Source: the human T2T-CHM13v2.0 reference genome, Homo sapiens. From it: a stretch of DNA of 64,000 nt. A program made the position numbers and the translations under genes. Below are positions 13,601 to 49,364 of this stretch, one piece after another. The stretch spans positions 37,728,001-37,792,000 of the forward strand of contig CP086569.2 in the NCBI GenBank assembly GCA_009914755.4. Reading direction: 5' to 3'. The notes beneath the pieces are model-generated. The model saw only the letters and a program-made list of their open reading frames with translations. It searched no databases and had not been told where the DNA came from. The number at the start of each line of letters is the position of its first letter. The first letter of the stretch is position 1.

Positions 13601-14241
13601 GCAATGCTACGGTCTCGAATGGAATAAAAATGTATGGAATGGAATGCAATGAAATGGAATCGAATGTCATAGAATGTAATGGAATGCAACAAAATGGAAT
13701 CCAATATCATTGACTGGAAAGGCTGGGTGTCGAAAGGAATTGACTCCAATGGAATGGAATCGAATGGAATGGAAGTGAATAGAATCGAACTAAATGGAAT
13801 GGAATGGAATTGATAGGAACGGAATGGAAAGGAATGCAATGATTTGGCATGGAATGGAATCGAATGGCATCGAATGGAATGGAATGGAATGCAATGGAAT
13901 GGAAGGTATTAGAATGGAATGAACTTTAATGGAATGTACTCGAATGGATTCGACTGGAATGGAATGTTCTGGAAGTGAATGGACTCCAATGGAATGGATT
14001 CAAAAGGAATGGAATCGTACGGAATGGAATCTAATGGAATGGAATTAAATGGAAATGAATCAAATTGAATAGCACGGAATTGAATTGAATGGAATGGAAT
14101 GCAATGGAATCTAATGAAACGGAAAGGAAAGGAATGGAATGGAATGGAATGGGCTGGAATGGAAAGGAATCGAAACGAATGGAATGGAATCGAACTGAAG
14201 AGACTGGAATGGAATGCACTGGAATGGAAGGGAGTGTAATG
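10673..14241 (+). repeat. HOR unit U4 (3569 bp)
   Basis: Anchor at 10673 and 14242. Near-identical to U2. Confidence 0.9.
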
Positions 14242-17200: not shown

Positions 17201-17815
17201 AAAATGTATGGAATGGAATGCAATGAAACGGAATCGAATGTCATAGAATGTAATGGAATGCAACAAAATGGAATCCAAAATCATTGACTGGAAAGGCTGG
17301 GTGTCGAAAGGAATTGACTCCAATGGAATGGAATCGAATGGAATGGAAGTGAATAGAATCGAACTAAATCGAATGGAATGGAATTGATAGGAACGGAATG
17401 GAAAGGAATGCAATGATTTGGCATGGAATGGAATCGAATGGCATCGAATGGAATGGAATGGAATGCAATGGAATGGAATGTATTAGAATGTAATGAACTT
17501 TAATGGAATGTACTCGAATGGATTCGACTGGAATGGAATGTTCTGGAAGTGAATGGACTCCAATGGAATGGATTCAAAAGGAATGGAATCGTACGGAATG
17601 GAATCTAATGGAATGGAATTAAATGGAAATGAATCAAATTGAATAGCACGGAATTGAATTGAATGGAATGGAATGCAATGGAATCTAATGAAACGGAAAG
17701 GAAAGGAATGGAATGGAATGGAATGGGCTGGAATGGAAAGGAATCGAAACGAATGGAATGGAATCGAACTGAAGAGACTGGAATGGAATGCACTGGAATG
17801 GAAGGGAGTGTAATG
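14242..17815 (+). repeat. HOR unit U5 (3574 bp)
   Basis: Anchor at 14242 and 17816. Near-identical to U3: the 305-aa artefact ORF 14810..15727 is identical to 7667..8584. Confidence 0.9.
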
Positions 17816-20800
17816 GAAGGTTCTCGAAAATAATGGAATCGAATGGAATGGAATTGAATGGAACGGAATAGAGTCGAATGGAATTGAATGGAATGGAATG
17901 GACTAGAGTGAAATGGAATCGAACCACAAGGAATGGACAGGAATAGAATGGTCTCGAATTGAATGGAATCGTATGGAATGGCATCAAACGGAATGGAATG
18001 GACAGCCACGGAATGGAATGCACTCGAATGCAATGGAGTCGAAACTAATGGACTGGAATAGAATGGACTCGACTGGTACGGACTCCAATGGAATGGAATC
18101 GAATGGAAGGGAATCGAACGGAATGGACTCGAAGGGAAAAGACTGCAATGGAAAGGTCTCGAATGGAATGGAAATTAATGGAATGGAATGGAATCGAATG
18201 AAATGGAGTCAAAAGGAATGGAATCGAATGGCAAGAAATCGAATGTAATGGAATCGCAAGGAATTGATGTGAACGGAACGGAATGGAATGGAATCCAAAG
18301 GAATGGAATAGAATGGAATGGAATCGAATGGAAAGGACTCGAATGGAAATCACTCGAATAGAATGCAATTTAATAAAATAGGATCAAATGTAATGGAATG
18401 GAATGGAAAGGAATCGAAACGAAAGGAATGGAGACAGATGGAATGGAATGGAACAGAGAGCAATGGTATAGAATGGAATGGAATCATCTGGAATGGAATT
18501 GAATGGAATGGAATAATATGAAATGGAATGGAATGGAATGGAATGGAATGCCCTTGAATTAAATGGACTGGAATGGAATGGACTCGAACAGAGTGGAATG
18601 GAAAGTGTTGAGATAGAATGGAATGGACTCCTTTGGAATGGTCTAGTATGCAATGCAATCGACTGTCAGGGAATCAAAAGGAATGTAATCGAATGGATTG
18701 GACTGGAATGCAATGGACTCGAATAGATTGGAAACGGAATGCAAAGGAATGGAATGGAATAGTATGGAATGGAATGGAAAGGAATGGAGTGGAATAGACT
18801 AGAGTGGAATGGAATGGACTGGAAAGCAATGGACTGGAATGGAACTTTCTTGGATGGACTGGAATCAAACGGAATGGAATGCAATGCAATCAAATGGCAT
18901 GGAATAAAATAGAATGAAAGAGAATCAAATGGAATTGAATCGAATGGAATCGAATGGATTGTAAAGGAATAGAATGGAATGGAATGGAATTGACTCAAAT
19001 GGAATGGACTAGAATGGAATGGATTCGAATGGAAGGCAAAGGAATGGAATCTATTGGAATGGACTGTAATGGAATGGAATGGAAGGGATTGGAATGGACT
19101 CGAATGGAATGGACTGCAATAGAAAGGATTCGAATGGAATGAAAAAGAATTGAATGGAATAGAACAGAATGGAATCAAATCGAATGAAATGGAATGGAAT
19201 AGAAAGGAATGGAATGAAATGGAATGGAAAGGATTCGAATGGAATGCAATCGAATGGAATGGAATCGAACGGAATGGAATAAAATGGAAGAAAACTGGCA
19301 AGAAATGGAATCGAAATGAATGGAGTGTTATGGAACGGACTCAAAAGGAATTGAATGTAATAGAATGGAGTGGAGTGGACTCGAATATAATGGACTGGAA
19401 TGGAATGAAATCACATGGAATGGGAACGAATGGAATGGAATGGAAAGGAATGGAATCGAATGGAAAGGAATCGAATGGAAGGGAATGAAATTGAATCAAC
19501 AGGAATGGAAGGGAATAGAATAGACGGTAATGGAATGGACTCGAATAGAATGGACACGAATGCTCAAATTGAATGGATTCGAATGGAATGGAAACGAAAG
19601 GAATGTCATCGAATGGAATTGAATCGATTGGAATGAAATCGCATAGAATGGAGTGGAATCAAATGGAATTGAATCGAAAGGAAAGGAAGCGAATGGACTG
19701 AAATGAAATGGAATGGAATTGAATGGAAAATAATGCAATGGAATAGAATGGAACGAAATTTCACGGAATGGAATCAAACTGAATGGAATCAAATCAATGG
19801 AATCTAATCAAATGGAATGGAAAGGAATTGAATGGAGTAGATTGGATTGGATGGGATTGGAATGAAATGTACTGGAAAGGACTCGAATTTCATGAAACGG
19901 AATGGAATGAATTGGAACGGAATGGACTCGAATGGAATGGAATGTCATGGAATGGCATCGAATGGAATGGCATCAAATGGAATGGAATCGAATGCAATGG
20001 AATGTTATGGAATGGAATGGAATGCATTGGAATGGAATGTCCTCTAATGGAATGGATTCGAGTGGAATGGAATCGAATATAATGGAGTCGAATGAAATGG
20101 AATTGAAAGGAATGGGATCGAATAGAATGGAATATACTGGAATGTAATGTAATGAACACGAATGTAATTGACTGGAATGGAATGTACATGAATGGAAGGT
20201 AATCGAATGGAAAGTAATCCAATGGAATAGAATCTAATGCAATAAAACCGAATCAGATAGAGTAGAATGTAATGGAATGGAGTGCAGTGCAATGGAATGG
20301 AATGGAATTGAATGCAATGGAATGGAATGGAATGGAATGGAATGGAATGGAATGGAATGGAATGGTATGGAATGGATAGTAATGGACTGGAGTGAAATGG
20401 ACTGGAAAGGAATGGACTCAAATTGAAAGGGCTCGAAAGGAATGGAGTCAAATGGAATGGTCTGGAATGGAATGAACACGAATGAAATGCAATCCAATAG
20501 AATGGAATCGAATGGCATGGAATATAAAGAAATGGAATCGAAGAGAATGGAAACAAATGGAATGGAATTGAATGGAATGGAATTGAATGGAATGGGAACG
20601 AATGGAGTGAAATTGTATGCAGTAGAAGGGAATAGAATGGAATGCAAGCGAAAGGAAAGGAATGGATTGGAATGGAATGGAATTCATTGGAATGGAAGGG
20701 AATGTAGTGTAATGGACAGGCCTGGAATAAAGTGGAATGCTACGGTCTCGAATGGAATAAAAATGTATGGAATGGAATGCAATGAAACGGAATCGAATGT

Positions 20801-21379
20801 CATAGAATGTAATGGAATGCAACAAAATGGAATCCAAAATCATTGACTGGAAAGGCTGGGTGTCGAAAGGAATTGACTCCAATGGAATGGAATAGAATGG
20901 AATGGAAGTGAATAGAATCGAACTAAATCGAATGGAATGGAATTGATAGGAACGGAATGGAAAGGAATGCAATGATTTGGCATGGAATGGAATCGAATGG
21001 CATCGAATGGAATGGAATGGAATGGAATGCAATGGAATGGAATGTATTAGAATGTAATGAACTTTAATGGAATGTACTCGAATGGATTCGACTGGAATGG
21101 AATGTTCTGGAAGTGAATGGACTCCAATGGAATGGATTCAAAAGGAATGGAATTGTACGGAATGGAATCTAATGGAATGGAATTAAATGGAAATGAATCA
21201 AATTGAATAGCACGGAATTGAATTGAATGGAATGGAATGCAATGGAATCTAATGAAACGGAAAGGAAAGGAATGGAATGGAATGGAATGGGCTGGAATGG
21301 AAAGGAATCGAAACGAATGGAATGGAATCGAACTGAAGAGACTGGAATGGAATGCACTGGAATGGAAGGGAGTGTAATG
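17816..21379 (+). repeat. HOR unit U6 (3564 bp), B-type (gactgTcagg allele)
   Basis: Anchor at 17816 and 21380. The diagnostic sequence gcaatcgactgtcagg is at about 18655. Confidence 0.9.
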
Positions 21380-24300
21380 GAAGGTTCTCGAAAAAAATGG
21401 AATCGAATGGAATGGAATTGAATGGAACGGAATAGAGTCGAATGGAATTGAATGGAATGGAATGGACTAGAGTGAAATGGAATCGAACCACAAGGAATGG
21501 ACAGGAATAGAATGGTCTCGAATTGAATGGAATCGTATGGAATGGCATCAAACGGAATGGAATGGACAGCCACGGAATGGAATGCACTCGAATGCAATGG
21601 AGTCGAAACTAATGGACTGGAATAGAATGGACTCGACTGGTACGGACTCCAATGGAATGGAATCGAATGGAAGGGAATCGAACGGAATGGACTCGAAGGG
21701 AAAAGACTGCAATGGAAAGGTCTCGAATGGAATGGAAATTAATGGAATGGAATGGAATCGAATGAAATGGAGTCAAAAGGAATGGAATCGAATGGCAAGA
21801 AATCGAATGTAATGGAATCGCAAGGAATTGATGTGAACGGAACGGAATGGAATGGAATCCAAAGGAATGGAATAGAATGGAATGGAATCGAATGGAAAGG
21901 ACTCGAATGGAAATCACTCGAATAGAATGCAATTTAATAAAATAGGATCAAATGTAATGGAATGGAATGGAAAGGAATCGAAACGAAAGGAATGGAGACA
22001 GTTGGAATGGAATAGAACAGCGAGCAATGGTATAGAATGGAATGGAATCATCTGGAATGGAATTGAATGGAATGGAATAATATGAAATGGAATGGAATGG
22101 AATGGAATGGAATGCCCTTGAATTAAATGGACTGGAATGGAATGGACTCGAACAGAGTGGAATGGAAAGTGTTGAGATAGAATGGAATGGACTCCTTTGG
22201 AAAGGTGTAGTATGCAATGCAATCGACTGGCAGGGAATCAAATGGAATGTAATCGAATGGATTGGACTGGAATGCAATGGACTCGAATAGATTGCAAACG
22301 GAATGCAAAGGAATGGAATGGAATAGTATGGAATGGAATGGAAAGGAATGGAGTGGAATAGACTAGAGTGGAATGGAATGGACTGGAAAGCAATGGACTG
22401 GAATGGATCTTTCTTGAATGGACTGGAATCAAACGGAATGGAATGCAATGCAATCAAATGGCATGGAATAAAATAGAATGAAAGAGAATCAAATGGAATT
22501 GAATCGAATGGAATCGAATGGATTGGAAAGGAATAGAATGGAATGGAATGGAATGGACTCAAATGGAATGGACTAGAATGGAATGGATTCGAATGGAAGG
22601 CAAAGGAATGGAATCTATTGGAATGGACTGTAATGGAATGGAATGGAAGGGATTGGAATGGACTCGAATGGAATGGACTGCAATAGAAAGGATTCGAATG
22701 GAATGAAAAAGAATTGAATGGAATAGAACAGAATGGAATCAAATCGAATGAAATGGAATGGAATAGAAAGGAATGGAATGAAATGGAATGGAAAGGATTC
22801 GAGTGGAATGCAATCGAATGGAATGGAATCGAACGGAATGGAATAAAATGGAAGAAAACTGGCAAGAAATGGAATCGAAATGAATGGAGTGTTATGGAAC
22901 GGACTCAAAAGGAATTGAATGTAATAGAATGGAGTGGAGTGGACTCGAATATAATGGACTGGAATGGAATGAAATCACATGGAATGGGAACGAATGGAAT
23001 GGAATGGAAAGGAATGGAATCGAATGGAAAGGAATCGAATGGAAGGGAATGAAATTGAATCAACAGGAATGGAAGGGAATAGAATAGACGGTAATGGAAT
23101 GGACTCGAATAGAATGGACACGAATGCTCAAATTGAATGGACTCGAATGGAATGGAAACGAAAGGAATGTCATCGAATGGAATTGAATCGATTGGAATGA
23201 AATCGCATAGAATGGAGTGGAATCAAATGGAATTGAATCGAAAGGAAAGGAAGCGAATGGACTGAAATGAAATGGAATGGAATTGAATGGAAAGTAATGC
23301 AATGGAATAGAATGGAACGAAATTTCACGGAATGGAATCAAACTGAATGGAATCAAATCAATGGAATCAAATCAAATGGAATGGAAAGGAATTGAATGGA
23401 GTAGATTGGATTGGATGGGATTGGAATGAAATGTACTGGAAAGGACTCGAATTTCATGAAACGGAATGGAATGAATTGGAACGGAATGGACTCGAATGGA
23501 ATGGAATGTCATGGAATGGCATCAAATGGAATGGCATCAAATGGAATGGAATCGAATGCAATGGAATGCTATGGAATGGAATGGAATGCATTGGAATGGA
23601 ATGTCCTCTAATGGAATGGATTCGAGTGGAATGGAATCGAATATAATGGAGTCGAATGAAATGGAATTGAAAGGAATGGGATCGAATACAATGGAATATA
23701 CTGGAATGTAATGTAATGAACTCGAATGTAATTGACTGGAATGGAATGTACGTGAATGGAATATAATCGAATGGAAAGTAATCCAATGGAATAGAATCTA
23801 ATGCAATAAAATCGACTCAGATAGAGTAGAATGTAATGGAAAGGAGTGCAGTGCAATGGAATGGAATGGAATGGAATGCAATTGAATGGAATGGAATGGA
23901 ATGGAATGGAATGGAATGGGATGGAATGGTATGGAATGGATAGTAATGGACTGGAGTGAAATGGACTGGAAAGGAATATACTCAAATTGAAAGGGCTCGA
24001 AAGGAATGGAGTCAAATGGAATGGTCTGGAATGGAATGAACACGAATGTAATGCAATCCAATAGAATGGAATCGAATGGCATGGAATATAAAGAAATGGA
24101 ATCGGAGAGAATGGAAACAAATGGAAAGGAAATGAATGGAATGGAATTGAATGGAATGGGAACGAATGGAGTGAAATTGTATGCAGTAGAAGGGAATAGA
24201 ATGGAATGCAAGCGAAAGGAAAGGAATGGATTGGAATGGAATGGAATTCATTGGAATGGAAGGGAATGTAGTGTAATGGACAGGCCTGGAATAAAGTGGA

Positions 24301-24938
24301 ATGCTACGGTCTCGAATGGAATAAAAATGTATGGAATGGAATGCAATGAAATGGAATCGAATGTCATAGAATGTAATGGAATGCAACAAAATGGAATCCA
24401 ATATCATTGACTGGAAAGGCTGGGTGTCGAAAGGAATTGACTCCAATGGAATGGAATCGAATGGAATGGAAGTGAATAGAATCGAACTAAATCGAATGGA
24501 ATGGAATTGATAGGAACGGAATGGAAAGGAATGCAATGATTTGGCATGGAATGGAATCGAATGGCATCGAATGGAATGGAATGGAATGCAATGGAATGGA
24601 ATGTATTAGAATGTAATGAACTTTAATGGAATGTACTCGAATGGATTCGACTGGAATGGAATGTTCTGGAAGTGAATGGACTCCAATGGAATGGATTCAA
24701 AAGGAATGGAATCGTACGGAATGGAATCTAATGGAATGGAATTAAATGGAAATGAATCAAATTGAATAGCACGGAATTGAATTGAATGGAATGGAATGCA
24801 ATGGAATCTAATGAAACGGAAAGGAAAGGAATGGAATGGAATGGAATGGGCTGGAATGGAAAGGAATCGAAACGAATGGAATGGAATCGAACTGAAGAGA
24901 CTGGAATGGAATGCACTGGAATGGAAGGGAGTGTAATG
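21380..24938 (+). repeat. HOR unit U7 (3559 bp), A-type variant
   Basis: Anchor at 21380 and 24939. The gactggcagg allele is present, together with private variants (ggatctttcttgaatgg at about 22405). Confidence 0.9.
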
Positions 24939-27900
24939 GAAGGTTCTCGAAAAAAATGGAATCGAATGGAATGGAATTGAATGGAACGGAATAGAGTCGA
25001 ATGGAATTGAATGGAATGGAATGGACTAGAGTGAAATGGAATCGAACCACAAGGAATGGAGATGAATAGAATGGTCTCGAATTGAATGGAATCGTATGGA
25101 ATGGCATCAAACGGAATGGAATGGACAGCCACGGAATGGAATGCACTCGAATGCAATGGAGTCGAAACTAATGGACTGGAATAGAATGGACTCGACTGGT
25201 ACGGACTCCAATGGAATGGAATCGAATGGAAGGGAATCGAACGGAATGGACTCGAAGGGAAAAGACTGCAATGGAAAGGTCTCGAATGGAATGGAAATTA
25301 ATGGAATGGAATGGAATCGAATGAAATGGAGTCAAAAGGAATGGAATCGAATGGCAAGAAATCGAATGTAATGGAATCGCAAGGAATTGATGTGAACGGA
25401 ACGGAATGGAATGGAATCCAAAGGAATGGAATAGAATGGAATGGAATCGAATGGAAAGGACTCGAATGGAAATCACTCGAATAGAATGCAATTTAATAAA
25501 ATAGGATCAAATGTAATGGAATGGAATGGAAAGGAATCGAAACGAAAGGAATGGAGACAGATGGAATGGAATGGAACAGAGAGCAATGGTATAGAATGGA
25601 ATGGAATCATCTGGAATGGAATTGAATGGAATGGAATAATATGAAATGGAATGGAATGGAATGGAATGGAATGCCCTTGAATTAAATGGACTGGAATGGA
25701 ATGGACTCGAACAGAGTGGAATGGAAAGTGTTGAGATAGAATGGAATGGACTCCTTTGGAATGGTCTAGTATGCAATGCAATCGACTGTCAGGGAATCAA
25801 AAGGAATGTAATCGAATGGATTGGACTGGAATGCAATGGACTCGAATAGATTGGAAACGGAATGCAAAGGAATGGAATGGAATAGTATGGAATGGAATGG
25901 AAAGGAATGGAGTGGAATAGACTAGAGTGGAATGGAATGGACTGGAAAGCAATGGACTGGAATGGAACTTTCTTGAATGGACTGGAATCAAACGGAATGG
26001 AATGCAATGCAATCAAATGGCATGGAATAAAATAGAATGAAAGAGAATCAAATGGAATTGAATCGAATGGAATCGAATGGATTGTAAAGGAATAGAATGG
26101 AATGGAATGGAATTGACTCAAATGGAATGGACTAGAATGGAATGGATTCGAATGGAAGGCAAAGGAATGGAATCTATTGGAATGGACTGTAATGGAATGG
26201 AATGGAAGGGATTGGAATGGACTCGAATGGAATGGACTGCAATAGAAAGGATTCGAATGGAATGAAAAAGAATTGAATGGAATAGAACAGAATGGAATCA
26301 AATCGAATGAAATGGAATGGAATAGAAAGGAATGGAATGAAATGGAATGGAAAGGATTCGAATGGAATGCAATCGAATGGAATGGAATCGAACGGAATGG
26401 AATAAAATGGAAGAAAACTGGCAAGAAATGGAATCGAAATGAATGGAGTGTTATGGAACGGACTCAAAAGGAATTGAATGTAATAGAATGGAGTGGAGTG
26501 GACTCGAATATAATGGACTGGAATGGAATGAAATCACATGGAATGGGAACGAATGGAATGGAATGGAAAGGAATGGAATCGAATGGAAAGGAATCGAATG
26601 GAAGGGAATGAAATTGAATCAACAGGAATGGAAGGGAATAGAATAGACGGTAATGGAATGGACTCGAATAGAATGGACACGAATGCTCAAATTGAATGGA
26701 TTCGAATGGAATGGAAACGAAAGGAATGTCATCGAATGGAATTGAATCGATTGGAATGAAATCGCATAGAATGGAGTGGAATCAAATGGAATTGAATCGA
26801 AAGGAAAGGAAGCGAATGGACTGAAATGAAATGGAATGGAATTGAATGGAAAGTAATGCAATGGAATAGAATGGAACGAAATTTCACGGAATGGAATCAA
26901 ACTGAATGGAATCAAATCAATGGAATCTAATCAAATGGAATGGAAAGGAATTGAATGGAGTAGATTGGATTGGATGGGATTGGAATGAAATGTACTGGAA
27001 AGGACTCGAATTTCATGAAACGGAATGGAATGAATTGGAACGGAATGGACTCGAATGGAATGGAATGTCATGGAATGGCATCGAATGGAATGGCATCAAA
27101 TGGAATGGAATCGAATGCAATGGAATGTTATGGAATGGAATGGAATGCATTGGAATGGAATGTCCTCTAATGGAATGGATTCGAGTGGAATGGAATCGAA
27201 TATAATGGAGTCGAATGAAATGGAATTGAAAGGAATGGGATCGAATAGAATGGAATATACTGGAATGTAATGTAATGAACACGAATGTAATTGACTGGAA
27301 TGGAATGTACATGAATGGAAGGTAATCGAATGGAAAGTAATCCAATGGAATAGAATCTAATGCAATAAAACCGAATCAGATAGAGTAGAATGTAATGGAA
27401 TGGAGTGCAGTGCAATGGAATGGAATGGAATTGAATGCAATGGAATGGAATGGAATGGAATGGAATGGAATGGAATGGAATGGTATGGAATGGATAGTAA
27501 TGGACTGGAGTGAAATGGACTGGAAAGGAATGGACTCAAATTGAAAGGGCTCGAAAGGAATGGAGTCAAATGGAATGGTCTGGAATGGAATGAACACGAA
27601 TGTAATGCAATCCAATAGAATGGAATCGAATGGCATGGAATATAAAGAAATGGAATCGAAGAGAATGGAAACAAATGGAATGGAATTGAATGGAATGGAA
27701 TTGAATGGAATGGGAACGAATGGAGTGAAATTGTATGAAGTAGAAGGGAATAGAATGGAATGCAAGCGAAAGGAAAGGAATGGATTGGAATGGAATGGAA
27801 TTCATTGGAATGGAAGGGAATGTAGTGTAATGGACAGGCCTGGAATAAAGTGGAATGCTACGGTCTCGAATGGAATAAAAATGTATGGAATGGAATGCAA

Positions 27901-28492
27901 TGAAACGGAATCGAATGTCATAGAATGTAATGGAATGCAACACAATGGAATCCAAAATCATTGACTGGAAAGGCTGGGTGTCGAAAGGAATTGACTCCAA
28001 TGGAATGGAATCGAATGGAATGGAAGTGAATAGAATCGAACTAAATCGAATGGAATGGAATTGATAGGAACGGAATGGAAAGGAATGCAATGATTTGGCA
28101 TGGAATGGAATCGAATGGCATCGAATGGAATGGAATGGAATGCAATGGAATGGAATGTATTAGAATGTAATGAACTTTAATGGAATGTACTCGAATGGAT
28201 TCGACTGGAATGGAATGTTCTGGAAGTGAATGGACTCCAATGGAATGGATTCAAAAGGAATGGAATCGTACGGAATGGAATCTAATGGAATGGAATTAAA
28301 TGGAAATGAATCAAATTGAATAGCACGGAATTGAATTGAATGGAATGGAATGCAATGGAATCTAATGAAACGGAAAGGAAAGGAATGGAATGGAATGGAA
28401 TGGGCTGGAATGGAAAGGAATCGAAACGAATGGAATGGAATCGAACTGAAGAGACTGGAATGGAATGCACTGGAATGGAAGGGAGTGTAATG
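24939..28492 (+). repeat. HOR unit U8 (3554 bp), B-type
   Basis: Anchor at 24939 and 28493. A private stop, ggagatgaatag at about 25060, truncates the MESNH artefact ORF to 91 aa. Confidence 0.9.
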
Positions 28493-31400
28493 GAAGGTTC
28501 TCGAAAATAATGGAATCGAATGGAATGGAATTGAATGGAACGGAATAGAGTCGAATGGAATTGAATGGAATGGAATGGACTAGAGTGAAATGGAATCGAA
28601 CCACAAGGAATGGACAGGAATAGAATGGTCTCGAATTGAATGGAATCGTATGGAATGGCATCAAACGGAATGGAATGGACAGCCACGGAATGGAATGCAC
28701 TCGAATGCAATGGAGTCGAAACTAATGGACTGGAATAGAATGGACTCGACTGGTACGGACTCCAATGGAATGGAATCGAATGGAAGGGAATCGAACGGAA
28801 TGGACTCGAAGGGAAAAGACTGCAATGGAAAGGTCTCGAATGGAATGGAAATTAATGGAATGGAATGGAATCGAATGAAATGGAGTCAAAAGGAATGGAA
28901 TCGAATGGCAAGAAATCGAATGTAATGGAATCGCAAGGAATTGATGTGAACGGAACGGAATGGAATGGAATCCAAAGGAATGGAATAGAATGGAATGGAA
29001 TCGAATGGAAAGGACTCGAATGGAAATCACTCGAATAGAATGCAATTTAATAAAATAGGATCAAATGTAATGGAATGGAATGGAAAGGAATCGAAACGAA
29101 AGGAATGGAGACAGATGGAATGGAATGGAACAGAGAGCAATGGTATAGAATGGAATGGAATCATCTGGAATGGAATTGAATGGAATGGAATAATATGAAA
29201 TGGAATGGAATGGAATGGAATGGAATGCCCTTGAATTAAATGGACTGGAATGGAATGGACTCGAACAGAGTGGAATGGAAAGTGTTGAGATAGAATGGAA
29301 TGGACTCCTTTGGAATGGTCTAGTATGCAATGCAATCGACTGTCAGGGAATCAAAAGGAATGAAATCGAATGGATTGGACTGGAATGCAATGGACTCGAA
29401 TAGATTGGAAACGGAATGCAAAGGAATGGAATGGAATAGTATGGAATGGAATGGAAAGGAATGGAGTGGAATAGACTAGAGTGGAATGGAATGGACTGGA
29501 AAGCAATGGACTGGAATGGAACTTTCTTGGATGGACTGGAATCAAACGGAATGGAATGCAATGCAATCAAATGGCATGGAATAAAATAGAATGAAAGAGA
29601 ATCAAATGGAATTGAATCGAATGGAATCGAATGGATTGTAAAGGAATAGAATGGAATGGAATGGAATTGACTCAAATGGAATGGACTAGAATGGAATGGA
29701 TTCGAATGGAAGGCAAAGGAATGGAATCTATTGGAATGGACTGTAATGGAATGGAATGGAAGGGATTGGAATGGACTCGAATGGAATGGACTGCAATAGA
29801 AAGGATTCGAATGGAATGAAAAAGAATTGAATGGAATAGAACAGAATGGAATCAAATCGAATGAAATGGAATGGAATAGAAAGGAATGGAATGAAATGGA
29901 ATGGAAAGGATTCGAGTGGAATGCAATCGAATGGAATGGAATCGAACGGAATGGAATAAAATGGAAGAAAACTGGCAAGAAATGGAATCGAAATGAATGG
30001 AGTGTTATGGAACGGACTCAAAAGGAATTGAATGTAATAGAATGGAGTGGAGTGGACTCGAATATAATGGACTGGAATGGAATGAAATCACATGGAATGG
30101 GAACGAATGGAATGGAATGGAAAGGAATGGAATCGAATGGAAAGGAATCGAATGGAAGGGAATGAAATTGAATCAACAGGAATGGAAGGGAATAGAATAG
30201 ACGGTAATGGAATGGACTCGAATAGAATGGACACGAATGCTCAAATTGAATGGATTCGAATGGAATGGAAACGAAAGGAATGTCATCGAATGGAATTGAA
30301 TCGATTGGAATGAAATCGCATAGAATGGAGTGGAATCAAATGGAATTGAATCGAAAGGAAAGGAAGCGAATGGACTGAAATGAAATGGAATGGAATTGAA
30401 TGGAAAGTAATGCAATGGAATAGAATGGAACGAAATTTCACGGAATGGAATCAAACTGAATGGAATCAAATCAATGGAATCTAATCAAATGGAATGGAAA
30501 GGAATTGAATGGAGTAGATTGGATTGGATGGGATTGGAATGAAATGTACTGGAAAGGACTCGAATTTCATGAAACGGAATGGAATGAATTGGAACGGAAT
30601 GGACTCGAATGGAATGGAATGTCATGGAATGGCATCGAATGGAATGGCATCAAATGGAATGGAATCGAATGCAATGGAATGTTATGGAATGGAATGGAAT
30701 GCATTGGAATGGAATGTCCTCTAATGGAATGGATTCGAGTGGAATGGAATCGAATATAATGGAGTCGAATGAAATGGAATTGAAAGGAATGGGATCGAAT
30801 AGAATGGAATATACTGGAATGTAATGTAATGAACACGAATGTAATTGACTGGAATGGAATGTACATGAATGGAAGGTAATCGAATGGAAAGTAATCCAAT
30901 GGAATAGAATCTAATGCAATAAAACCGAATCAGATAGAGTAGAATGTAATGGAATGGAGTGCAGTGCAATGGAATGGAATGGAATTGAATGCAATGGAAT
31001 GGAATGGAATGGAATGGAATGGAATGGAATGGAATGGAATGGAATGGTATGGAATGGATAGTAATGGACTGGAGTGAAATGGACTGGAAAGGAATGGACT
31101 CAAATTGAAAGGGCTCGAAAGGAATGGAGTCAAATGGAATGGTCTGGAATGGAATGAACACGAATGAAATGCAATCCAATAGAATGGAATCGAATGGCAT
31201 GGAATATAAAGAAATGGAATCGAAGAGAATGGAAACAAATGGAATGGAATTGAATGGAATGGAATTGAATGGAATGGGAACGAATGGAGTGAAATTGTAT
31301 GCAGTAGAAGGGAATAGAATGGAATGCAAGCGAAAGGAAAGGAATGGATTGGAATGGAATGGAATTCATTGGAATGGAAGGGAATGTAGTGTAATGGACA

Positions 31401-32061
31401 GGCCTGGAATAAAGTGGAATGCTACGGTCTCGAATGGAATAAAAATGTATGGAATGGAATGCAATGAAACGGAATCGAATGTCATAGAATGTAATGGAAT
31501 GCAACAAAATGGAATCCAAAATCATTGACTGGAAAGGCTGGGTGTCGAAAGGAATTGACTCCAATGGAATGGAATAGAATGGAATGGAAGTGAATAGAAT
31601 CGAACTAAATCGAATGGAATGGAATTGATAGGAACGGAATGGAAAGGAATGCAATGATTTGGCATGGAATGGAATCGAATGGCATCGAATGGAATGGAAT
31701 GGAATGGAATGCAATGGAATGGAATGTATTAGAATGTAATGAACTTTAATGGAATGTACTCGAATGGATTCGACTGGAATGGAATGTTCTGGAAGTGAAT
31801 GGACTCCAATGGAATGGATTCAAAAGGAATGGAATTGTACGGAATGGAATCTAATGGAATGGAATTAAATGGAAATGAATCAAATTGAATAGCACGGAAT
31901 TGAATTGAATGGAATGGAATGCAATGGAATCTAATGAAACGGAAAGGAAAGGAATGGAATGGAATGGAATGGGCTGGAATGGAAAGGAATCGAAACGAAT
32001 GGAATGGAATCGAACTGAAGAGACTGGAATGGAATGCACTGGAATGGAAGGGAGTGTAATG
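28493..32061 (+). repeat. HOR unit U9 (3569 bp), B-type
   Basis: Anchor at 28493 and 32062. Confidence 0.9.
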
Positions 32062-35000
32062 GAAGGTTCTCGAAAAAAATGGAATCGAATGGAATGGAAT
32101 TGAATGGAACGGAATAGAGTCGAATGGAATTGAATGGAATGGAATGGACTAGAGTGAAATGGAATCGAACCACAAGGAATGGACAGGAATAGAATGGTCT
32201 CGAATTGAATGGAATCGTATGGAATGGCATCAAACGGAATGGAATGGACAGCCACGGAATGGAATGCACTCGAATGCAATGGAGTCGAAACTAATGGACT
32301 GGAATAGAATGGACTCGACTGGTACGGACTCCAATGGAATGGAATCGAATGGAAGGGAATCGAACGGAATGGACTCGAAGGGAAAAGACTGCAATGGAAA
32401 GGTCTCGAATGGAATGGAAATTAATGGAATGGAATGGAATCGAATGAAATGGAGTCAAAAGGAATGGAATCGAATGGCAAGAAATCGAATGTAATGGAAT
32501 CGCAAGGAATTGATGTGAACGGAACGGAATGGAATGGAATCCAAAGGAATGGAATAGAATGGAATGGAATCGAATGGAAAGGACTCGAATGGAAATCACT
32601 CGAATAGAATGCAATTTAATAAAATAGGATCAAATGTAATGGAATGGAATGGAGAGGAATCGAAACGAAAGGAATGGAGACAGTTGGAATGGAATAGAAC
32701 AGCGAGCAATGGTATAGAATGGAATGGAATCATCTGGAATGGAATTGAATGGAATGGAATAATATGAAATGGAATGGAATGGAATGGAATGGAATGCCCT
32801 TGAATTAAATGGACTGGAATGGAATGGACTCGAACAGAGTGGAATGGAAAGTGTTGAGATAGAATGGAATGGACTCCTTTGGAATGGTGTAGTATGCAAT
32901 GCAATCGACTGGCAGAGAATCAAATGGAATGTAATCGAATGGATTGGACTGGAATGCAATGGACTCGAATAGATTGCAAACGGAATGCAAAGGAATGGAA
33001 TGGAATAGTATGGAATGGAATGGAAAGGAATGGAGTGGAATAGACTAGAGTGGAATGGAATGGACTGGAAAGCAATGGACTGGAATGGATCTTTCTTGAA
33101 TGGACTGGAATCAAACGGAATGGAATGCAATGCAATCAAATGGCATGGAATAAAATAGAATGAAAGAGAATCAAATGGAATTGAATCGAATGGAATCGAA
33201 TGGATTGGAAAGGAATAGAATGGAATGGAATGGAATTGACTCAAATGGAATGGACTAGAATGGAATGGATTCGAATGGAAGGCAAAGGAATGGAATCTAT
33301 TGGAATGGACTGTAATGGAATGGAATGGAAGGGATTGGAATGGACTCGAATGGAATGGACTGCAATAGAAAGGATTCGAATGGAATGAAAAAGAATTGAA
33401 TGGAATAGAACAGAATGGAATCAAATCGAATGAAATGGAATGGAATAGAAAGGAATGGAATGAAATGGAATGGAAAGGATTCGAATGGAATGCAATCGAA
33501 TGGAATGGAATCGAACGGAATGGAATAAAATGGAAGAAAACTGGCAAGAAATGGAATCGAAATGAATGGAGTGTTATGGAACGGACTCAAAAGGAATTGA
33601 ATGTAATAGAATGGAGTGGAGTGGACTCGAATATAATGGACTGGAATGGAATGAAATCACATGGAATGGGAACGAATGGAATGGAATGGAAAGGAATGGA
33701 ATCGAATGGAAAGGAATCGAATGGAAGGGAATGAAATTGAATCAACAGGAATGGAAGGGAATAGAATAGACGGTAATGGAATGGACTCGAATAGAATGGA
33801 CACGAATGCTCAAATTGAATGGACTCGAATGGAATGGAAACGAAAGGAATGTCATCGAATGGAATTGAATCGATTGGAATGAAATCGCATAGAATGGAGT
33901 GGAATCAAATGGAATTGAATCGAAAGGAAAGGAAGCGAATGGACTGAAATGAAATGGAATGGAATTGAATGGAAAGTAATGCAATGGAATAGAATGGAAC
34001 GAAATTTCACGGAATGGAATCAAACTGAATGGAATCAAATCAATGGAATCAAATCAAATGGAATGGAAAGGAATTGAATGGAGTAGATTGGATTGGTTGG
34101 GATTGGAATGAAATGTACTGGAAAGGACTCGAATTTCATGAAACGGAATGGAATGAATTGGAACGGAATGGACTCGAATGGAATGGAATGTCATGGAATG
34201 GCATCAAATGGAATGGCATCAAATGGAATGGAATCGAATGCAATGGAATGCTATGGAATGGAATGGAATGCATTGGAATGGAATGTCCTCTAATGGAATG
34301 GATTCGAGTGGAATGGAATCGAATATAATGGAGTCGAATGAAATGGAATTGAAAGGAATGGGATCGAATACAATGGAATATACTGGAATGTAATGTAATG
34401 AACTCGAATGTAATTGACTGGAATGGAATGTACGTGAATGGAATATAATCGAATGGAAAGTAATCCAATGGAATAGAATCTAATGCAATAAAATCGACTC
34501 AGATAGAGTAGAATGTAATGGAAAGGAGTGCAGTGCAATGGAATGGAATGGAATGGAATGCAATTGAATGGAATGGAATGGAATGGAATGGAATGTAATG
34601 GGATGGAATGGTATGGAATGGATAGTAATGGACTGGAGTGAAATGGACTGGAAAGGAATATACTCAAATTGAAAGGGCTCGAAAGGAATGGAGTCAAATG
34701 GAATGGTCTGGAATGGAATGAACACGAATGTAATGCAATCCAATAGAATGGAATCGAATGGCATGGAATATAAAGAAATGGAATCGGAGAGAATGGAAAC
34801 AAATGGAATGGAAATGAATGGAATGGAATTGAATGGAATGGGAACGAATGGAGTGAAATTGTATGCAGTAGAAGGGAATAGAATGGAATGCAAGCGAAAG
34901 GAAAGGAATGGATTGGAATGGAATGGAATTCATTGGAATGGAAGGGAATGTAGTGTAATGGACAGGCCTGGAATAAAGTGGAATGCTACGGTCTCGAATG

Positions 35001-35620
35001 GAATAAAAATGTATGGAATGGAATGCAATGAAATGGAATCGAATGTCATAGAATGTAATGGAATGCAACAAAATGGAATCCAATATCATTGACTGGAAAG
35101 GCTGGGTGTCGAAAGGAATTGACTCCAATGGAATGGAATCGAATGGAATGGAAGTGAATAGAATCGAACTAAATCGAATGGAATGGAATTGATAGGAACG
35201 GAATGGAAAGGAATGCAATGATTTGGCATGGAATGGAATCGAATGGCATCGAATGGAATGGAATGGAATGCAATGGAATGGAATGTATTAGAATGTAATG
35301 AACTTTAATGGAATGTACTCGAATGGATTCGACTGGAATGGAATGTTCTGGAAGTGAATGGACTCCAATGGAATGGATTCAAAAGGAATGGAATCGTACG
35401 GAATGGAATCTAATGGAATGGAATTAAATGGAAATGAATCAAATTGAATAGCACGGAATTGAATTGAATGGAATGGAATGCAATGGAATCTAATGAAACG
35501 GAAAGGAAAGGAATGGAATGGAATGGAATGGGCTGGAATGGAAAGGAATCGAAACGAATGGAATGGAATCGAACTGAAGAGACTGGAATGGAATGCACTG
35601 GAATGGAAGGGAGTGTAATG
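32062..35620 (+). repeat. HOR unit U10 (3559 bp), A-type variant; copy of U7
   Basis: Anchor at 32062 and 35621. Shares the U7 private variants (KKDPFQ, ITFHLI and ARCSIPFQLS in ORF 32630..33547). Confidence 0.9.
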
Positions 35621-38600
35621 GAAGGTTCTCGAAAAAAATGGAATCGAATGGAATGGAATTGAATGGAACGGAATAGAGTCGAATGGAATTGAATGGAATG
35701 GAATGGACTAGAGTGAAATGGAATCGAACCACAAGGAATGGAGATGAATAGAATGGTCTCGAATTGAATGGAATCGTATGGAATGGCATCAAACGGAATG
35801 GAATGGACAGCCACGGAATGGAATGCACTCGAATGCAATGGAGTCGAAACTAATGGACTGGAATAGAATGGACTCGACTGGTACGGACTCCAATGGAATG
35901 GAATCGAATGGAAGGGAATCGAACGGAATGGACTCGAAGGGAAAAGACTGCAATGGAAAGGTCTCGAATGGAATGGAAATTAATGGAATGGAATGGAATC
36001 GAATGAAATGGAGTCAAAAGGAATGGAATCGAATGGCAAGAAATCGAATGTAATGGAATCGCAAGGAATTGATGTGAACGGAACGGAATGGAATGGAATC
36101 CAAAGGAATGGAATAGAATGGAATGGAATCGAATGGAAAGGACTCGAATGGAAATCACTCGAATAGAATGCAATTTAATAAAATAGGATCAAATGTAATG
36201 GAATGGAATGGAAAGGAATCGAAACGAAAGGAATGGAGACAGATGGAATGGAATGGAACAGAGAGCAATGGTATAGAATGGAATGGAATCATCTGGAATG
36301 GAATTGAATGGAATGGAATAATATGAAATGGAATGGAATGGAATGGAATGGAATGGAATGCCCTTGAATTAAATGGACTGGAATGGAATGGACTCGAACA
36401 GAGTGGAATGGAAAGTGTTGAGATAGAATGGAATGGACTCCTTTGGAATGGTCTAGTATGCAATGCAATCGACTGTCAGGGAATCAAAAGGAATGTAATC
36501 GAATGGATTGGACTGGAATGCAATGGACTCGAATAGATTGGAAACGGAATGCAAAGGAATGGAATGGAATAGTATGGAATGGAATGGAAAGGAATGGAGT
36601 GGAATAGACTAGAGTGGAATGGAATGGACTGGAAAGCAATGGACTGGAATGGAACTTTCTTGAATGGACTGGAATCAAACGGAATGGAATGCAATGCAAT
36701 CAAATGGCATGGAATAAAATAGAATGAAAGAGAATCAAATGGAATTGAATCGAATGGAATCGAATGGATTGTAAAGGAATAGAATGGAATGGAATGGAAT
36801 TGACTCAAATGGAATGGACTAGAATGGAATGGATTCGAATGGAAGGCAAAGGAATGGAATCTATTGGAATGGACTGTAATGGAATGGAATGGAAGGGATT
36901 GGAATGGACTCGAATGGAATGGACTGCAATAGAAAGGATTCGAATGGAATGAAAAAGAATTGAATGGAATAGAACAGAATGGAATCAAATCGAATGAAAT
37001 GGAATGGAATAGAAAGGAATGGAATGAAATGGAATGGAAAGGATTCGAATGGAATGCAATCGAATGGAATGGAATCGAACGGAATGGAATAAAATGGAAG
37101 AAAACTGGCAAGAAATGGAATCGAAATGAATGGAGTGTTATGGAACGGACTCAAAAGGAATTGAATGTAATAGAATGGAGTGGAGTGGACTCGAATATAA
37201 TGGACTGGAATGGAATGAAATCACATGGAATGGGAACGAATGGAATGGAATGGAAAGGAATGGAATCGAATGGAAAGGAATCGAATGGAAGGGAATGAAA
37301 TTGAATCAACAGGAATGGAAGGGAATAGAATAGACGGTAATGGAATGGACTCGAATAGAATGGACACGAATGCTCAAATTGAATGGATTCGAATGGAATG
37401 GAAACGAAAGGAATGTCATCGAATGGAATTGAATCGATTGGAATGAAATCGCATAGAATGGAGTGGAATCAAATGGAATTGAATCGAAAGGAAAGGAAGC
37501 GAATGGACTGAAATGAAATGGAATGGAATTGAATGGAAAGTAATGCAATGGAATAGAATGGAACGAAATTTCACGGAATGGAATCAAACTGAATGGAATC
37601 AAATCAATGGAATCTAATCAAATGGAATGGAAAGGAATTGAATGGAGTAGATTGGATTGGATGGGATTGGAATGAAATGTACTGGAAAGGACTCGAATTT
37701 CATGAAACGGAATGGAATGAATTGGAACGGAATGGACTCGAATGGAATGGAATGTCATGGAATGGCATCGAATGGAATGGCATCAAATGGAATGGAATCG
37801 AATGCAATGGAATGTTATGGAATGGAATGGAATGCATTGGAATGGAATGTCCTCTAATGGAATGGATTCGAGTGGAATGGAATCGAATATAATGGAGTCG
37901 AATGAAATGGAATTGAAAGGAATGGGATCGAATAGAATGGAATATACTGGAATGTAATGTAATGAACACGAATGTAATTGACTGGAATGGAATGTACATG
38001 AATGGAAGGTAATCGAATGGAAAGTAATCCAATGGAATAGAATCTAATGCAATAAAACCGAATCAGATAGAGTAGAATGTAATGGAATGGAGTGCAGTGC
38101 AATGGAATGGAATGGAATTGAATGCAATGGAATGGAATGGAATGGAATGGAATGGAATGGAATGGAATGGAATGGTATGGAATGGATAGTAATGGACTGG
38201 AGTGAAATGGACTGGAAAGGAATGGACTCAAATTGAAAGGGCTCGAAAGGAATGGAGTCAAATGGAATGGTCTGGAATGGAATGAACACGAATGTAATGC
38301 AATCCAATAGAATGGAATCGAATGGCATGGAATATAAAGAAATGGAATCGAAGAGAATGGAAACAAATGGAATGGAATTGAATGGAATGGAATTGAATGG
38401 AATGGGAACGAATGGAGTGAAATTGTATGAAGTAGAAGGGAATAGAATGGAATGCAAGCGAAAGGAAAGGAATGGATTGGAATGGAATGGAATTCATTGG
38501 AATGGAAGGGAATGTAGTGTAATGGACAGGCCTGGAATAAAGTGGAATGCTACGGTCTCGAATGGAATAAAAATGTATGGAATGGAATGCAATGAAACGG

Positions 38601-39184
38601 AATCGAATGTCATAGAATGTAATGGAATGCAACACAATGGAATCCAAAATCATTGACTGGAAAGGCTGGGTGTCGAAAGGAATTGACTCCAATGGAATGG
38701 AATCGAATGGAATGGAAGTGAATAGAATCGAACTAAATCGAATGGAATGGAATTGATAGGAACGGAATGGAAAGGAATGCAATGATTTGGCATGGAATGG
38801 AATCGAATGGCATCGAATGGAATGGAATGGAATGCAATGGAATGGAATGTATTAGAATGTAATGAACTTTAATGGAATGTACTCGAATGGATTCGACTGG
38901 AATGGAATGTTCTGGAAGTGAATGGACTCCAATGGAATGGATTCAAAAGGAATGGAATCGTACGGAATGGAATCTAATGGAATGGAATTAAATGGAAATG
39001 AATCAAATTGAATAGCACGGAATTGAATTGAATGGAATGGAATGCAATGGAATCTAATGAAACGGAAAGGAAAGGAATGGAATGGAATGGAATGGGCTGG
39101 AATGGAAAGGAATCGAAACGAATGGAATGGAATCGAACTGAAGAGACTGGAATGGAATGCACTGGAATGGAAGGGAGTGTAATG
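35621..39184 (+). repeat. HOR unit U11 (3564 bp), B-type; copy of U8
   Basis: Anchor at 35621 and 39185. Carries the same private stop as U8: ggagatgaatag at about 35742 gives the 91-aa ORF 35778..36053. Confidence 0.9.
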
Positions 39185-42100: not shown

Positions 42101-42718
42101 ATAAAAATGTATGGAATGGAATGCAATGAAACGGAATCGAATGTCATAGAATGTAATGGAATGCAACACAATGGAATCCAAAATCATTGACTGGAAAGGC
42201 TGGGTGTCGAAAGGAATTGACTCCAATGGAATGGAATCGAATGGAATGGAAGTGAATAGAATCGAACTAAATCGAATGGAATGGAATTGATAGGAACGGA
42301 ATGGAAAGGAATGCAATGATTTGGCATGGAATGGAATCGAATGGCATCGAATGGAATGGAATGGAATGCAATGGAATGGAATGTATTAGAATGTAATGAA
42401 CTTTAATGGAATGTACTCGAATGGATTCGACTGGAATGGAATGTTCTGGAAGTGAATGGACTCCAATGGAATGGATTCAAAAGGAATGGAATCGTACGGA
42501 ATGGAATCTAATGGAATGGAATTAAATGGAAACGAATCAAATTGAATAGCACGGAATTGAATTGAATGGAATGGAATGCAATGGAATCTAATGAAACGGA
42601 AAGGAAAGGAATGGAATGGAATGGAATGGGCTGGAATGGAAAGGAATCGAAACGAATGGAATGGAATCGAACTGAAGAGACTGGAATGGAATGCACTGGA
42701 ATGGAAGGGAGTGTAATG
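39185..42718 (+). repeat. HOR unit U12 (3534 bp), B-type, with a contracted (GGAAT)n tract
   Basis: Anchor at 39185 and 42719. The pure pentamer run at about 41683 to 41722 is roughly 30 bp shorter than the homologous run in U11 (about 38124 to 38192). Confidence 0.9.
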
Positions 42719-45700: not shown

Positions 45701-46282
45701 TCGAATGTCATAGAATGTAATGGAATGCAACAAAATGGAATCCAAAATCATTGACTGGAAAGGCTGGGTGTCGAAAGGAATTGACTCCAATGGAATGGAA
45801 TCGAATGGAATAGAAGTGAATAGAATCGAACTAAATCGAATGGAATGGAATTGATAGGAACGGAATGGAAAGGAATGCAATGATTTGGCATGGAATGGAA
45901 TCGAATGGCATCGAATGGAATGGAATGGAATGCAATGGAATGGAATGTATTAGAATGTAATGAACTTTAATGGAATGTACTCGAATGGATTCGACTGGAA
46001 TGGAATGTTCTGGAAGTGAATGGACTCCAATGGAATGGATTCAAAAGGAATGGAATCGTACGGAATGGAATCTAATGGAATGGAATTAAATGGAAATGAA
46101 TCAAATTGAATAGCACGGAATTGAATTGAATGGAATGGAATGCAATGGAATCTAATGAAACGGAAAGGAAAGGAATGGAATGGAATGGAATGGGCTGGAA
46201 TGGAAAGGAATCGAAACGAATGGAATGGAATCGAACTGAAGAGACTGGAATGGAATGCACTGGAATGGAAGGGAGTGTAATG
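42719..46282 (+). repeat. HOR unit U13 (3564 bp), B-type
   Basis: Anchor at 42719 and 46283. Nearly identical to U12 and U9. Confidence 0.9.
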
Positions 46283-49200: not shown

Positions 49201-49364
49201 GCTACGGTCTCGAATGGAATAAAAATGTATGGAATGGAATGCAATGAAACGGAATCGAATGTCATAGAATGTAATGGAATGCAACAAAATGGAATCCAAA
49301 ATCATTGACTGGAAAGGCTGGGTGTCGAAAGGAATTGACTCCAATGGAATGGAATCGAATGGAA
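46283..49364 (+). repeat. HOR unit U14, B-type, truncated at its 3' end by a deletion (about the last 470 bp is missing)
   Basis: Anchor at 46283. Homology to the other units ends at 49359 to 49369, where the sequence jumps to unit offset ~948. Confidence 0.8.

What the first reader, a model, noticed from the sequence alone, without database searches (positions are those of the whole stretch)
17816..39184. A 3-unit (~10.68 kb) super-repeat with shared private mutations
The block [B-type, A-variant, B-type-with-stop] occurs twice in tandem. The same private stop, ggagatgaatag, is at 25060 and at 35742. The same KKDPFQ, ITFHLI and ARCSIPFQLS variants are at 21948 and at 32630. A-type units (gactgGcagg) are interleaved among B-type units (gactgTcagg), which suggests block duplication of an already mosaic trio. 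The block period differs from the 2-unit period upstream, so the array is a patchwork of independently amplified multimers.
Basis: seen in the sequence. Interest (0 to 1): 0.55.

Follow-up and report, generated by a model that had tools for sequence, protein, structure and literature searches.

The report
Three-unit duplication in human Y satellite
The window is the well-known human Y-chromosome satellite DYZ1 (3.56-kb units built from GGAAT pentamers), and the "super-repeat" is a real but ordinary recent tandem duplication of three neighbouring units, of the kind that unequal exchange makes in this non-coding array.

Summary
Units U6-U8 (17816-28492) and U9-U11 (28493-39184) are two head-to-tail copies of a 10.68-kb block. 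They differ by 11 substitutions and three AATGG indels (99.90% identity). The same block compared at lags of one or two units differs by 88 and 86 substitutions. A neighbour-joining tree pairs U6+U9, U7+U10 and U8+U11 with bootstrap support of 77%, 100% and 100%.

The whole window is human Y-chromosome DYZ1 (HSat3A6, Yq12). It has one HaeIII site per 3.53-3.58-kb unit, 38.8% GC and one CpG per 35 bp. The HSat3A6-diagnostic 24-mer occurs 34 times and the 13 other HSat subfamily markers never occur. Published DYZ1 primers map once per unit.

The ORFs are artefacts of a stop-free pentamer repeat.

The most likely mechanism is unequal sister-chromatid exchange three units out of register, followed by point mutation, pentamer slippage and gene conversion. 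The "patchwork" reading holds. There is an older 2-unit repeat (U2-U5), a hybrid unit (U12) and a very recent out-of-register 2,128-bp duplication (47231-51486).

This is ordinary behaviour, already described for Yq12, so interest is low.

The parts
17816..28492 (.). Copy 1 of the 3-unit block: U6 (17816-21379), U7 (21380-24938), U8 (24939-28492); 10,677 bp
28493..39184 (.). Copy 2 of the 3-unit block: U9 (28493-32061), U10 (32062-35625), U11 (35626-39184); 10,692 bp. It differs from copy 1 by 11 substitutions and three +AATGG indels.
   Evidence: tree
17267..17815 (.). Possible leftward extension of the periodic region. The tail of U5 is identical to the tail of U8 after the last U5/U8 mismatch at 17266. 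The tail has few variable sites, so this is uninformative.
39185..41584 (.). Rightward extension. The head of U12 matches the head of U9 with 1 substitution, but it is equally close to the head of U13.
39185..42718 (.). U12, a hybrid unit. Its head carries the U9/U13 markers and its tail carries the U8/U11 markers. It looks like a third trio collapsed by a 2-unit deletion.
25058..25069 (+). Marker GGAGATGAATAG in U8. The two substitutions relative to the consensus GGACAGGAATAG are at 25061 (C>G) and 25063 (G>T).
   Evidence: 0 of 43 external DYZ1 copies carry it
35740..35751 (+). The same marker in U11, 10,682 bp downstream.
21948..22865 (-). It is a pentamer-repeat artefact, not a gene. Its twin is at 32630-33547 in U10.
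3530..17815 (.). Older 2-unit repeat [U2 U3][U4 U5]. U2/U4 differ by 21 substitutions and U3/U5 by 7. Identical k-mers peak at lag 7143.
47231..51486 (.). Out-of-register tandem duplication of 2,128 bp (0.6 unit): 47231-49358 and 49359-51486, with 1 mismatch. The junction near 49350-49369 lies in pentamer microhomology.
1..64000 (-). DYZ1 / HSat3A6 array: 18 whole or rearranged units plus one partial unit. The canonical TTCCA strand is the minus strand of the window.

Best explanation
The window is a stretch of the human Y-chromosome long-arm heterochromatic satellite DYZ1 (HSat3A6, Yq12). This is a non-coding array of about 3.56-kb units, themselves derived from the pentamer GGAAT/ATTCC.

Within it, a block of three adjacent and already-diverged units (B1 type, an A-lineage variant, B2 type) was duplicated head to tail as one 10.68-kb piece. 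The most likely cause is an unequal exchange between sister chromatids, or an equivalent intrachromatid or replication-template switch, misaligned by exactly three units.

After the duplication the copies accumulated:
- a few point mutations;
- three single-pentamer slippage indels;
- a few gene-conversion-like allele swaps with neighbouring units.

The right-hand part of the block coalesced more recently than the left. The downstream unit U12 looks like a further trio collapsed by a 2-unit deletion. The duplication has no function of its own and is a neutral trace of satellite turnover.

Shown: the identity of the satellite, the duplication, its extent and the differences between copies. Inferred: the exchange mechanism, the order of events and the age.
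For: Identity as DYZ1.
- The whole window is a pentamer-derived satellite; AATGG is the commonest pentamer.
- There is exactly one HaeIII site per unit. Fragments are 3,534-3,579 bp; 3,564 bp is the commonest (4 of 17), followed by 3,574 (3) and 3,569 (2). GC is 38.8% and there is one CpG per 35.5 bp.
- These values match the published DYZ1 description: a 3,569-bp modal HaeIII fragment, 38% GC and 1 CpG per 35 bp (bioRxiv 10.1101/2022.12.01.518658).
- The HSat3A6-specific 24-mer of Altemose 2014 (PMC4022460) occurs 34 times. The 13 other subfamily 24-mers occur 0 times.
- Six of the eight DYZ1 primers in PMC3925983 Table 5 map once per unit in the expected orientation.
- A facing primer pair gives a 154-bp product once per unit. 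I recalled these primers from memory.

Duplication.
- Identity is 99.90% at lag 3 units and about 99.2% at lags 1 and 2.
- The tree and bootstraps support the three pairings, as do the pair-private alleles and the k-mer lag peak.
- The markers are local. The U8/U11 allele is in 0 of 43 external DYZ1 copies found as human contamination in metagenome contigs. The B-type, C-type and U7/U10-specific alleles are in 0-3 of about 20 external copies.

Mechanism.
- Pedigree data show about one whole-unit structural change per Y transmission in Yq12, and 29% of new SNVs match other Yq12 copies, which points to gene conversion (PMC12240836).
- Here 4 of the 11 differences lie at sites where both alleles occur in other units.
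- All three indels are whole AATGG pentamers inside (AATGG)n tracts.

Age. With the Yq12 rate of 3.86e-7 per bp per generation, 11 differences in 10,680 bp give about 1,300 generations. This is a rough figure.
Against: - No human reference genome could be searched, so the Y-chromosome location rests on diagnostic markers and published descriptions, not on mapping.
- The three unit pairs differ unevenly (0, 3 and 8 substitutions; chi-square p = 0.012). All 11 substitutions fall in 18686-24127 (range test p = 0.004). A single event followed by uniform clock-like mutation is therefore too simple.
- Sequence alone cannot distinguish sister-chromatid exchange from replication-based template switching.
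- Only two full copies are present.
- Read-level support for the assembly could not be checked.
Confidence: 0.87

Rival explanations
1. The two trios are the remnant of a longer array of the 10.7-kb trimer (three or more copies), a short-lived local higher-order repeat that later partly collapsed. They are not the product of a single duplication.
For: U12 joins a B1-type head to a B2-type tail. This is what an unequal exchange between the first and third unit of a trio would leave. The 'B2 tail to B1 head' junction recurs at U8/U9, U11/U12 and U12/U13, seen as k-mer lags 10692, 14226 and 3534. The uneven divergence along the block fits several exchanges with different coalescence times.
Against: The head of U12 is as close to U13 (0 differences before column 2427) as to U9 (1 difference). 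It need not be a trio member. Only one A-variant pair exists in the window.
Confidence: 0.3
2. There was no block duplication. Three separate gene-conversion or homogenisation events happened to make U6~U9, U7~U10 and U8~U11.
For: Gene conversion is frequent in Yq12. The three pairs show unequal divergence.
Against: Three events would all have to act at the same 3-unit lag, on adjacent units, and leave continuous near-identity across both internal unit boundaries. U7/U10 is an A-lineage unit found nowhere else among the B units, and conversion from a distant donor would not place it twice at the same spacing.
Confidence: 0.04
3. Assembly artefact: a false duplication of one trio in a hard-to-assemble satellite.
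For: Yq12 is described as among the hardest regions to assemble. The copies are 99.9% identical.
Against: The copies differ by 11 substitutions and 3 whole-pentamer indels. This is biological-type variation and enough for long accurate reads to tell them apart. Flanking units differ on each side. Similar multi-size events nearby form a coherent picture.
Confidence: 0.05
4. A tandem array of protein-coding genes in which one copy per trio has been knocked out by a stop codon.
For: 305-aa ORFs recur on the minus strand.
Against: (GGAAT)n and its complement contain no stop codon in any frame, so long ORFs are expected by composition. Pfam gives only sub-threshold low-complexity hits: Extensin_1 at 48 bits against a cut-off of 105, and Pentapeptide_4 below its cut-off. 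The TAG of the 'private stop' is present in all units. There are no Rfam or tRNA matches.
Confidence: 0.01

Closest known systems
DYZ1 / HSat3A6 satellite of human Yq12 (3.56-kb HaeIII repeat; Nakahori 1986, Altemose 2014, T2T-Y 2023, Hallast 2023)
   Same: Pentamer-derived sequence, unit length, single HaeIII site, GC and CpG content, subfamily-diagnostic 24-mer, primer sites, and more than 98% identity among units.
   Different: Nothing at the family level. The local B-type, C-type and U7/U10 variants are rare among other sampled DYZ1 copies. This is expected from local homogenisation.
Iterative tandem duplications in Yq12 by unequal exchange (T2T-Y paper, Extended Data Fig. 8) and de novo whole-unit structural variants in pedigrees (PMC12240836)
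   Same: Head-to-tail, in-register duplication of whole satellite units with near-identical copies, on a non-recombining chromosome with frequent sister-chromatid exchange.
   Different: Scale. This event is 10.7 kb (3 DYZ1 units). The published examples are up to 5 Mb, or 1-2 DYZ2 units (2.4-4.8 kb).
Higher-order repeats of alpha satellite and other HSat2/3 arrays
   Same: A multimer of diverged sub-units repeats as a block. Blocks are more alike than the sub-units within a block: 99.9% against 99.2%.
   Different: Only about 2.3 copies are present. The contrast in identity is small. The period is not maintained through the array, since 2-unit, 1-unit and 0.6-unit periods lie next to it.

Membership tests
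DYZ1 / HSat3A6 (human Yq12 satellite) | Built from diverged copies of the pentamer GGAAT/ATTCC (CATTC) | tested here: met
   TRF covers 27-64000 with pentamer-multiple periods. AATGG rotations make up 21,605 of 63,996 pentamers.
DYZ1 / HSat3A6 (human Yq12 satellite) | About 3.56-kb unit released by a single HaeIII site (3,564/3,569 bp) | tested here: met
   18 GGCC sites, one per unit. Fragments are 3,534-3,579 bp plus one of 2,128 bp.
DYZ1 / HSat3A6 (human Yq12 satellite) | Carries the HSat3A6-specific 24-mer and not those of other HSat2/3 subfamilies | tested here: met
   TCGTTTCGATTCCTTTCCATTCCA occurs 34 times. The 13 other subfamily 24-mers occur 0 times (table).
DYZ1 / HSat3A6 (human Yq12 satellite) | Published DYZ1 PCR primers anneal once per unit in the right order and orientation | tested here: met
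   Six of eight primers of PMC3925983 map. Primers A and H were not found at up to 1 substitution. By my own reading of the window sequence, not by a tool run, H as printed appears to lack one G. A 154-bp facing pair matches exactly once per unit, with one mismatch in U4.
DYZ1 / HSat3A6 (human Yq12 satellite) | 38% GC and about 1 CpG per 35 bp | tested here: met
   38.8% GC and 1 CpG per 35.5 bp, against the values.
DYZ1 / HSat3A6 (human Yq12 satellite) | Located on the Y chromosome (male-specific), in blocks alternating with DYZ2 | not testable with these tools
   No human genome collection is available. The window holds no DYZ2, which is expected because DYZ1 blocks are 80-1,600 kb.
Tandem duplication by unequal (out-of-register) homologous exchange | Head-to-tail copies in the same orientation, offset by a whole number of repeat units, near-identical, continuous across internal unit boundaries | tested here: met
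   Lag of 10,677-10,692 bp equals 3 units. Identity is 99.90% along the whole block. K-mer lags agree.
Tandem duplication by unequal (out-of-register) homologous exchange | Direct observation of the exchange, or of the reciprocal product | not testable with these tools
   This needs pedigree or population assemblies.
Established higher-order repeat (HOR) array | Multimer repeated many times and dominating the array's periodicity | tested here: not met
   About 2.3 copies only. Neighbouring stretches have 2-unit, 1-unit and 0.6-unit periods.
Protein-coding tandem gene array | ORFs with significant family membership or non-repetitive conservation | tested here: not met
   Only sub-threshold low-complexity Pfam hits. 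The ORFs follow from stop-free pentamers.

The most novel reading that the evidence does not exclude
The trimer is a nascent 10.7-kb higher-order repeat peculiar to one Y lineage. It was once present in three or more copies and is now partly collapsed, with U12 as the scar. That would make this spot a datable marker of how new periodicities are born and die inside DYZ1 blocks.
Probability: 0.15. Interest if true: 0.25.

Novelty: already known. Interest (0 to 1): 0.12.

Why it matters
It matters little beyond bookkeeping. The finding shows at base resolution the known way Yq12 satellite arrays turn over. Events include whole-unit unequal exchanges of various sizes, an out-of-register event mediated by pentamer microhomology, pentamer slippage, and gene-conversion-like allele sharing. 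Such local multimers could serve as lineage markers or as anchors for assembly validation. They do not point to a new element, gene or mechanism. The main practical lesson for the scan is that long ORFs and 'private stops' in pentamer satellites are compositional artefacts.

Tried and rejected
- Ungapped lag autocorrelation did not rank 10.68 kb highly; the best value near it was 0.623 at lag 10697. Pentamer indels shift the register. I replaced it with identical-k-mer lag counts and gapped alignment.
- My first unit segmentation gave a 'U15' with about 300 mismatches. This was a phase error caused by the 2,128-bp out-of-register duplication and was resolved.
- A literature search for the 154-bp primer sequence found nothing. 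'DYZ1' plus '154 bp' gave irrelevant papers. The original DYZ1 paper, PMC311781, is not held. The primer pair therefore stays a recollection, although it matches perfectly.
- Coding reading: rejected after the Pfam scan.
- RNA families and tRNAs: none found.
- A third partial trio (the head of U12) was considered as an extension of the repeat. It is left open because that head is equally close to U13.
- The two 55-kb metagenome contigs carrying DYZ1 could not be used to look for multimers elsewhere.
Full report
**What the window is**

Tandem Repeats Finder covers 27-64000 with periods that are multiples of five, and the consensus is (AATGG)n. Composition is uniform at about 39% GC, with strong G>C and A>T skew throughout.

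A 23-bp marker recurs every ~3.56 kb. This divides the window into units U1-U19 of 3,529-3,579 bp.

Several independent markers identify the sequence as DYZ1 / HSat3A6:
- There is exactly one HaeIII site (GGCC) per unit. Fragments are 3,534-3,579 bp, most often 3,564 (4 of 17), then 3,574 (3) and 3,569 (2).
- GC is 38.8% and there is one CpG per 35.5 bp.
- These values match the published description of human Y-chromosome DYZ1 (HSat3A6). That description gives a ~3.5-kb pentameric unit, a modal HaeIII fragment of 3,569 bp, 38% GC and 1 CpG per 35 bp. The classical unit is 3,564 bp.
- The HSat3A6-specific 24-mer from Altemose et al. 2014 occurs 34 times on the minus strand. The diagnostic 24-mers of the 13 other HSat2/3 subfamilies never occur.
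- Six of the eight DYZ1 primers in PMC3925983 map once per unit. The 'forward' primers lie on the minus strand and the 'reverse' primers on the plus strand.
- A facing primer pair that I recalled as the classical Y-specific 154-bp assay matches exactly once per unit, and the sites are 154 bp apart. I could not verify that pair in the paper library.

The canonical TTCCA strand is the window's minus strand. This agrees with the report that 96% of Yq12 units lie antisense in assemblies.

There are no Rfam families or tRNAs.

Human DYZ1 also turned up as contamination in 41 metagenome contig stretches. These are up to 99.5% identical to the window's units.

**Checking the observation**

The unit-by-unit substitution matrix:

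| Pair | Substitutions |
|---|---|
| U6-U9 | 3 |
| U7-U10 | 8 |
| U8-U11 | 0 |
| Non-corresponding pairs within U6-U11 | 10-41 |

A direct global alignment of 17816-28492 against 28493-39184 gives 11 substitutions and three indels in 10,677 aligned bases, which is 99.90% identity. Each indel is one extra AATGG in copy 2. Shifting the comparison by one or two units gives 88 and 86 substitutions.

Further support:
- Neighbour-joining with 300 bootstraps pairs U6+U9 (77%), U7+U10 (100%) and U8+U11 (100%).
- Of 31 alleles carried by exactly two of the 16 full units, 13 belong to these three pairs. None belongs to a conflicting pair within U6-U11.
- Identical 300-mers are most numerous at lags 10677, 10682, 10687 and 10692, with 9,511 positions together. 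The next class is lag 7143, from the upstream 2-unit repeat.

- GGAGATGAATAG occurs only at 25058 and 35740.
- The three peptide strings each occur only twice, 10,682 bp apart, in minus-strand ORFs.

Minor corrections:
- Marker coordinates are 2 bases off.
- U10 has GACTGGCAGA because of a private change.
- The high-identity 3-unit periodicity actually spans 17267-41584, about 2.28 periods.

**The coding language is spurious**

(GGAAT)n and its complement have no stop codon in any frame, so 305-aa ORFs arise by composition. Pfam gives only sub-threshold low-complexity hits. The TAG of the 'private stop' is present in every unit, and only the neighbouring GAGATG versus GACAGG is private.

As markers, however, these variants are good. 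Among 43 external DYZ1 copies, none carries the U8/U11 allele. The alleles that define the B-type, C-type and U7/U10 units are seen in 0-3 of about 20 external copies. The window's sub-types are therefore local products of homogenisation.

**Finer anatomy**

- *Unit types.* The B units split into B1 (U6, U9, U12, U13) and B2 (U8, U11). U7 and U10 belong to the A lineage with U2 and U4 (91% bootstrap).
- *Differences between copies.* Seven of the 11 are alleles seen in no other unit of the window. Four lie at sites where both alleles occur in other units. This resembles the 29% of de novo Yq12 SNVs attributed to interlocus gene conversion.
- *Uneven divergence.* All 11 substitutions lie in 18686-24127 and none in 24128-28645 (range test p = 0.004; per-unit heterogeneity p = 0.012). 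The right part of the block therefore shares a more recent ancestor than the left.
- *Hybrid unit U12.* It has a B1 head and a B2 tail. The 'B2 tail to B1 head' junction recurs three times. This fits a third trio that lost two units by a further unequal exchange, but the case is not decisive.
- *Upstream 2-unit repeat.* [U2 U3][U4 U5] is older, with 21 and 7 substitutions between partners.
- *Recent 2,128-bp duplication.* 47231-49358 is repeated at 49359-51486 with a single mismatch. It is an out-of-register (0.6-unit) duplication whose junction lies in a stretch of shared pentamers. It produces the lone 2,128-bp HaeIII fragment.

**Mechanism**

The sequence shows an in-register, head-to-tail duplication of three whole units. 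I infer that it arose by unequal sister-chromatid exchange, or an equivalent template switch. Three published observations support this:
- The Y long arm has no homologue to recombine with.
- Pedigrees show about one whole-unit structural change per Y transmission.

With the pedigree-based Yq12 rate of 3.86e-7 per bp per generation, 11 differences in 10.68 kb correspond to roughly 1,300 generations. The 2,128-bp duplication corresponds to about 600 generations and the U2/U4 pair to about 7,600. These are order-of-magnitude figures only, because conversion inflates and erases differences.

**Comparison with what is known, and verdict**

The window meets every sequence-level criterion of DYZ1 / HSat3A6 that I could test. 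Chromosomal location could not be tested.

The 3-unit block behaves like a local higher-order repeat but does not qualify as an established one. There are about 2.3 copies and the periodicity is not maintained.

Local multi-unit duplications, gene conversion and unit-scale structural change are all documented for Yq12. The finding is therefore real and correctly interpreted in structural terms, and it is already-known biology of low interest.

Noticed in passing
window 47231-51486: A very recent out-of-register tandem duplication of 2,128 bp (0.6 of a unit). 47231-49358 equals 49359-51486 apart from one mismatch at 49285. The junction at about 49350-49369 sits in shared TGGAATCGAATGGAATGGAA pentamers. 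It creates the only aberrant HaeIII fragment (2,128 bp).
   Followed up: yes
window 39185-42718 (U12): A hybrid unit. Its head carries U9/U13 markers and its tail carries U8/U11 markers, with the switch between alignment columns about 2427 and 2845. It looks like the scar of a 2-unit deletion inside a third trio.
   Followed up: partly
window 18686-24127 versus 24128-28645 (and partners +10.68 kb): All 11 substitutions between the two trio copies cluster in the left 5.4 kb, and the right 4.5 kb has none (p about 0.004). This implies more than one exchange or conversion event.
   Followed up: partly
window 19239/29916 and 22803/33485 (alignment column 1450): The same A/G site differs in both the U6/U9 and the U7/U10 pair, in opposite directions. 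The G allele is also in U12 and U13. This is either a recurrent mutation or a gene-conversion hotspot.
   Followed up: no
window 20316, 25645, 27439 (and partners): All three indels between the copies are a single extra AATGG in copy 2. Two fall in the same (AATGG)n tract (alignment column 2532), which also varies among other units. It is a slippage hotspot.
   Followed up: no
window 3530-17815: An older 2-unit repeat [U2 U3][U4 U5]. U2/U4 differ by 21 substitutions and U3/U5 by 7. U1 does not join the pattern (37-42 differences from all of U2-U5).
   Followed up: partly
window 51980-64000: There is an abrupt change to a third unit type (C: U16-U19) with 13 defining alleles. U16, U18 and U19 are close to one another and U17 is a little apart. 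There is no clear multimer period here.
   Followed up: partly
L007, L008, L014, L019 (contig BNJT01001888.1, 55 kb) and L011, L016 (BNJU01004413.1, 55 kb): Two long metagenome contigs are human DYZ1 contamination. In all, 41 metagenome stretches carry DYZ1, including one labelled human gut metagenome (L040).
   Followed up: partly
window 4098-5015, 21948-22865, 48910-49896 and others (minus strand): 305-328-aa ORFs recur in A- and C-type units and in the duplication junction. They are artefacts of a stop-free pentamer repeat, and their Pfam hits are sub-threshold and low-complexity.
   Followed up: yes
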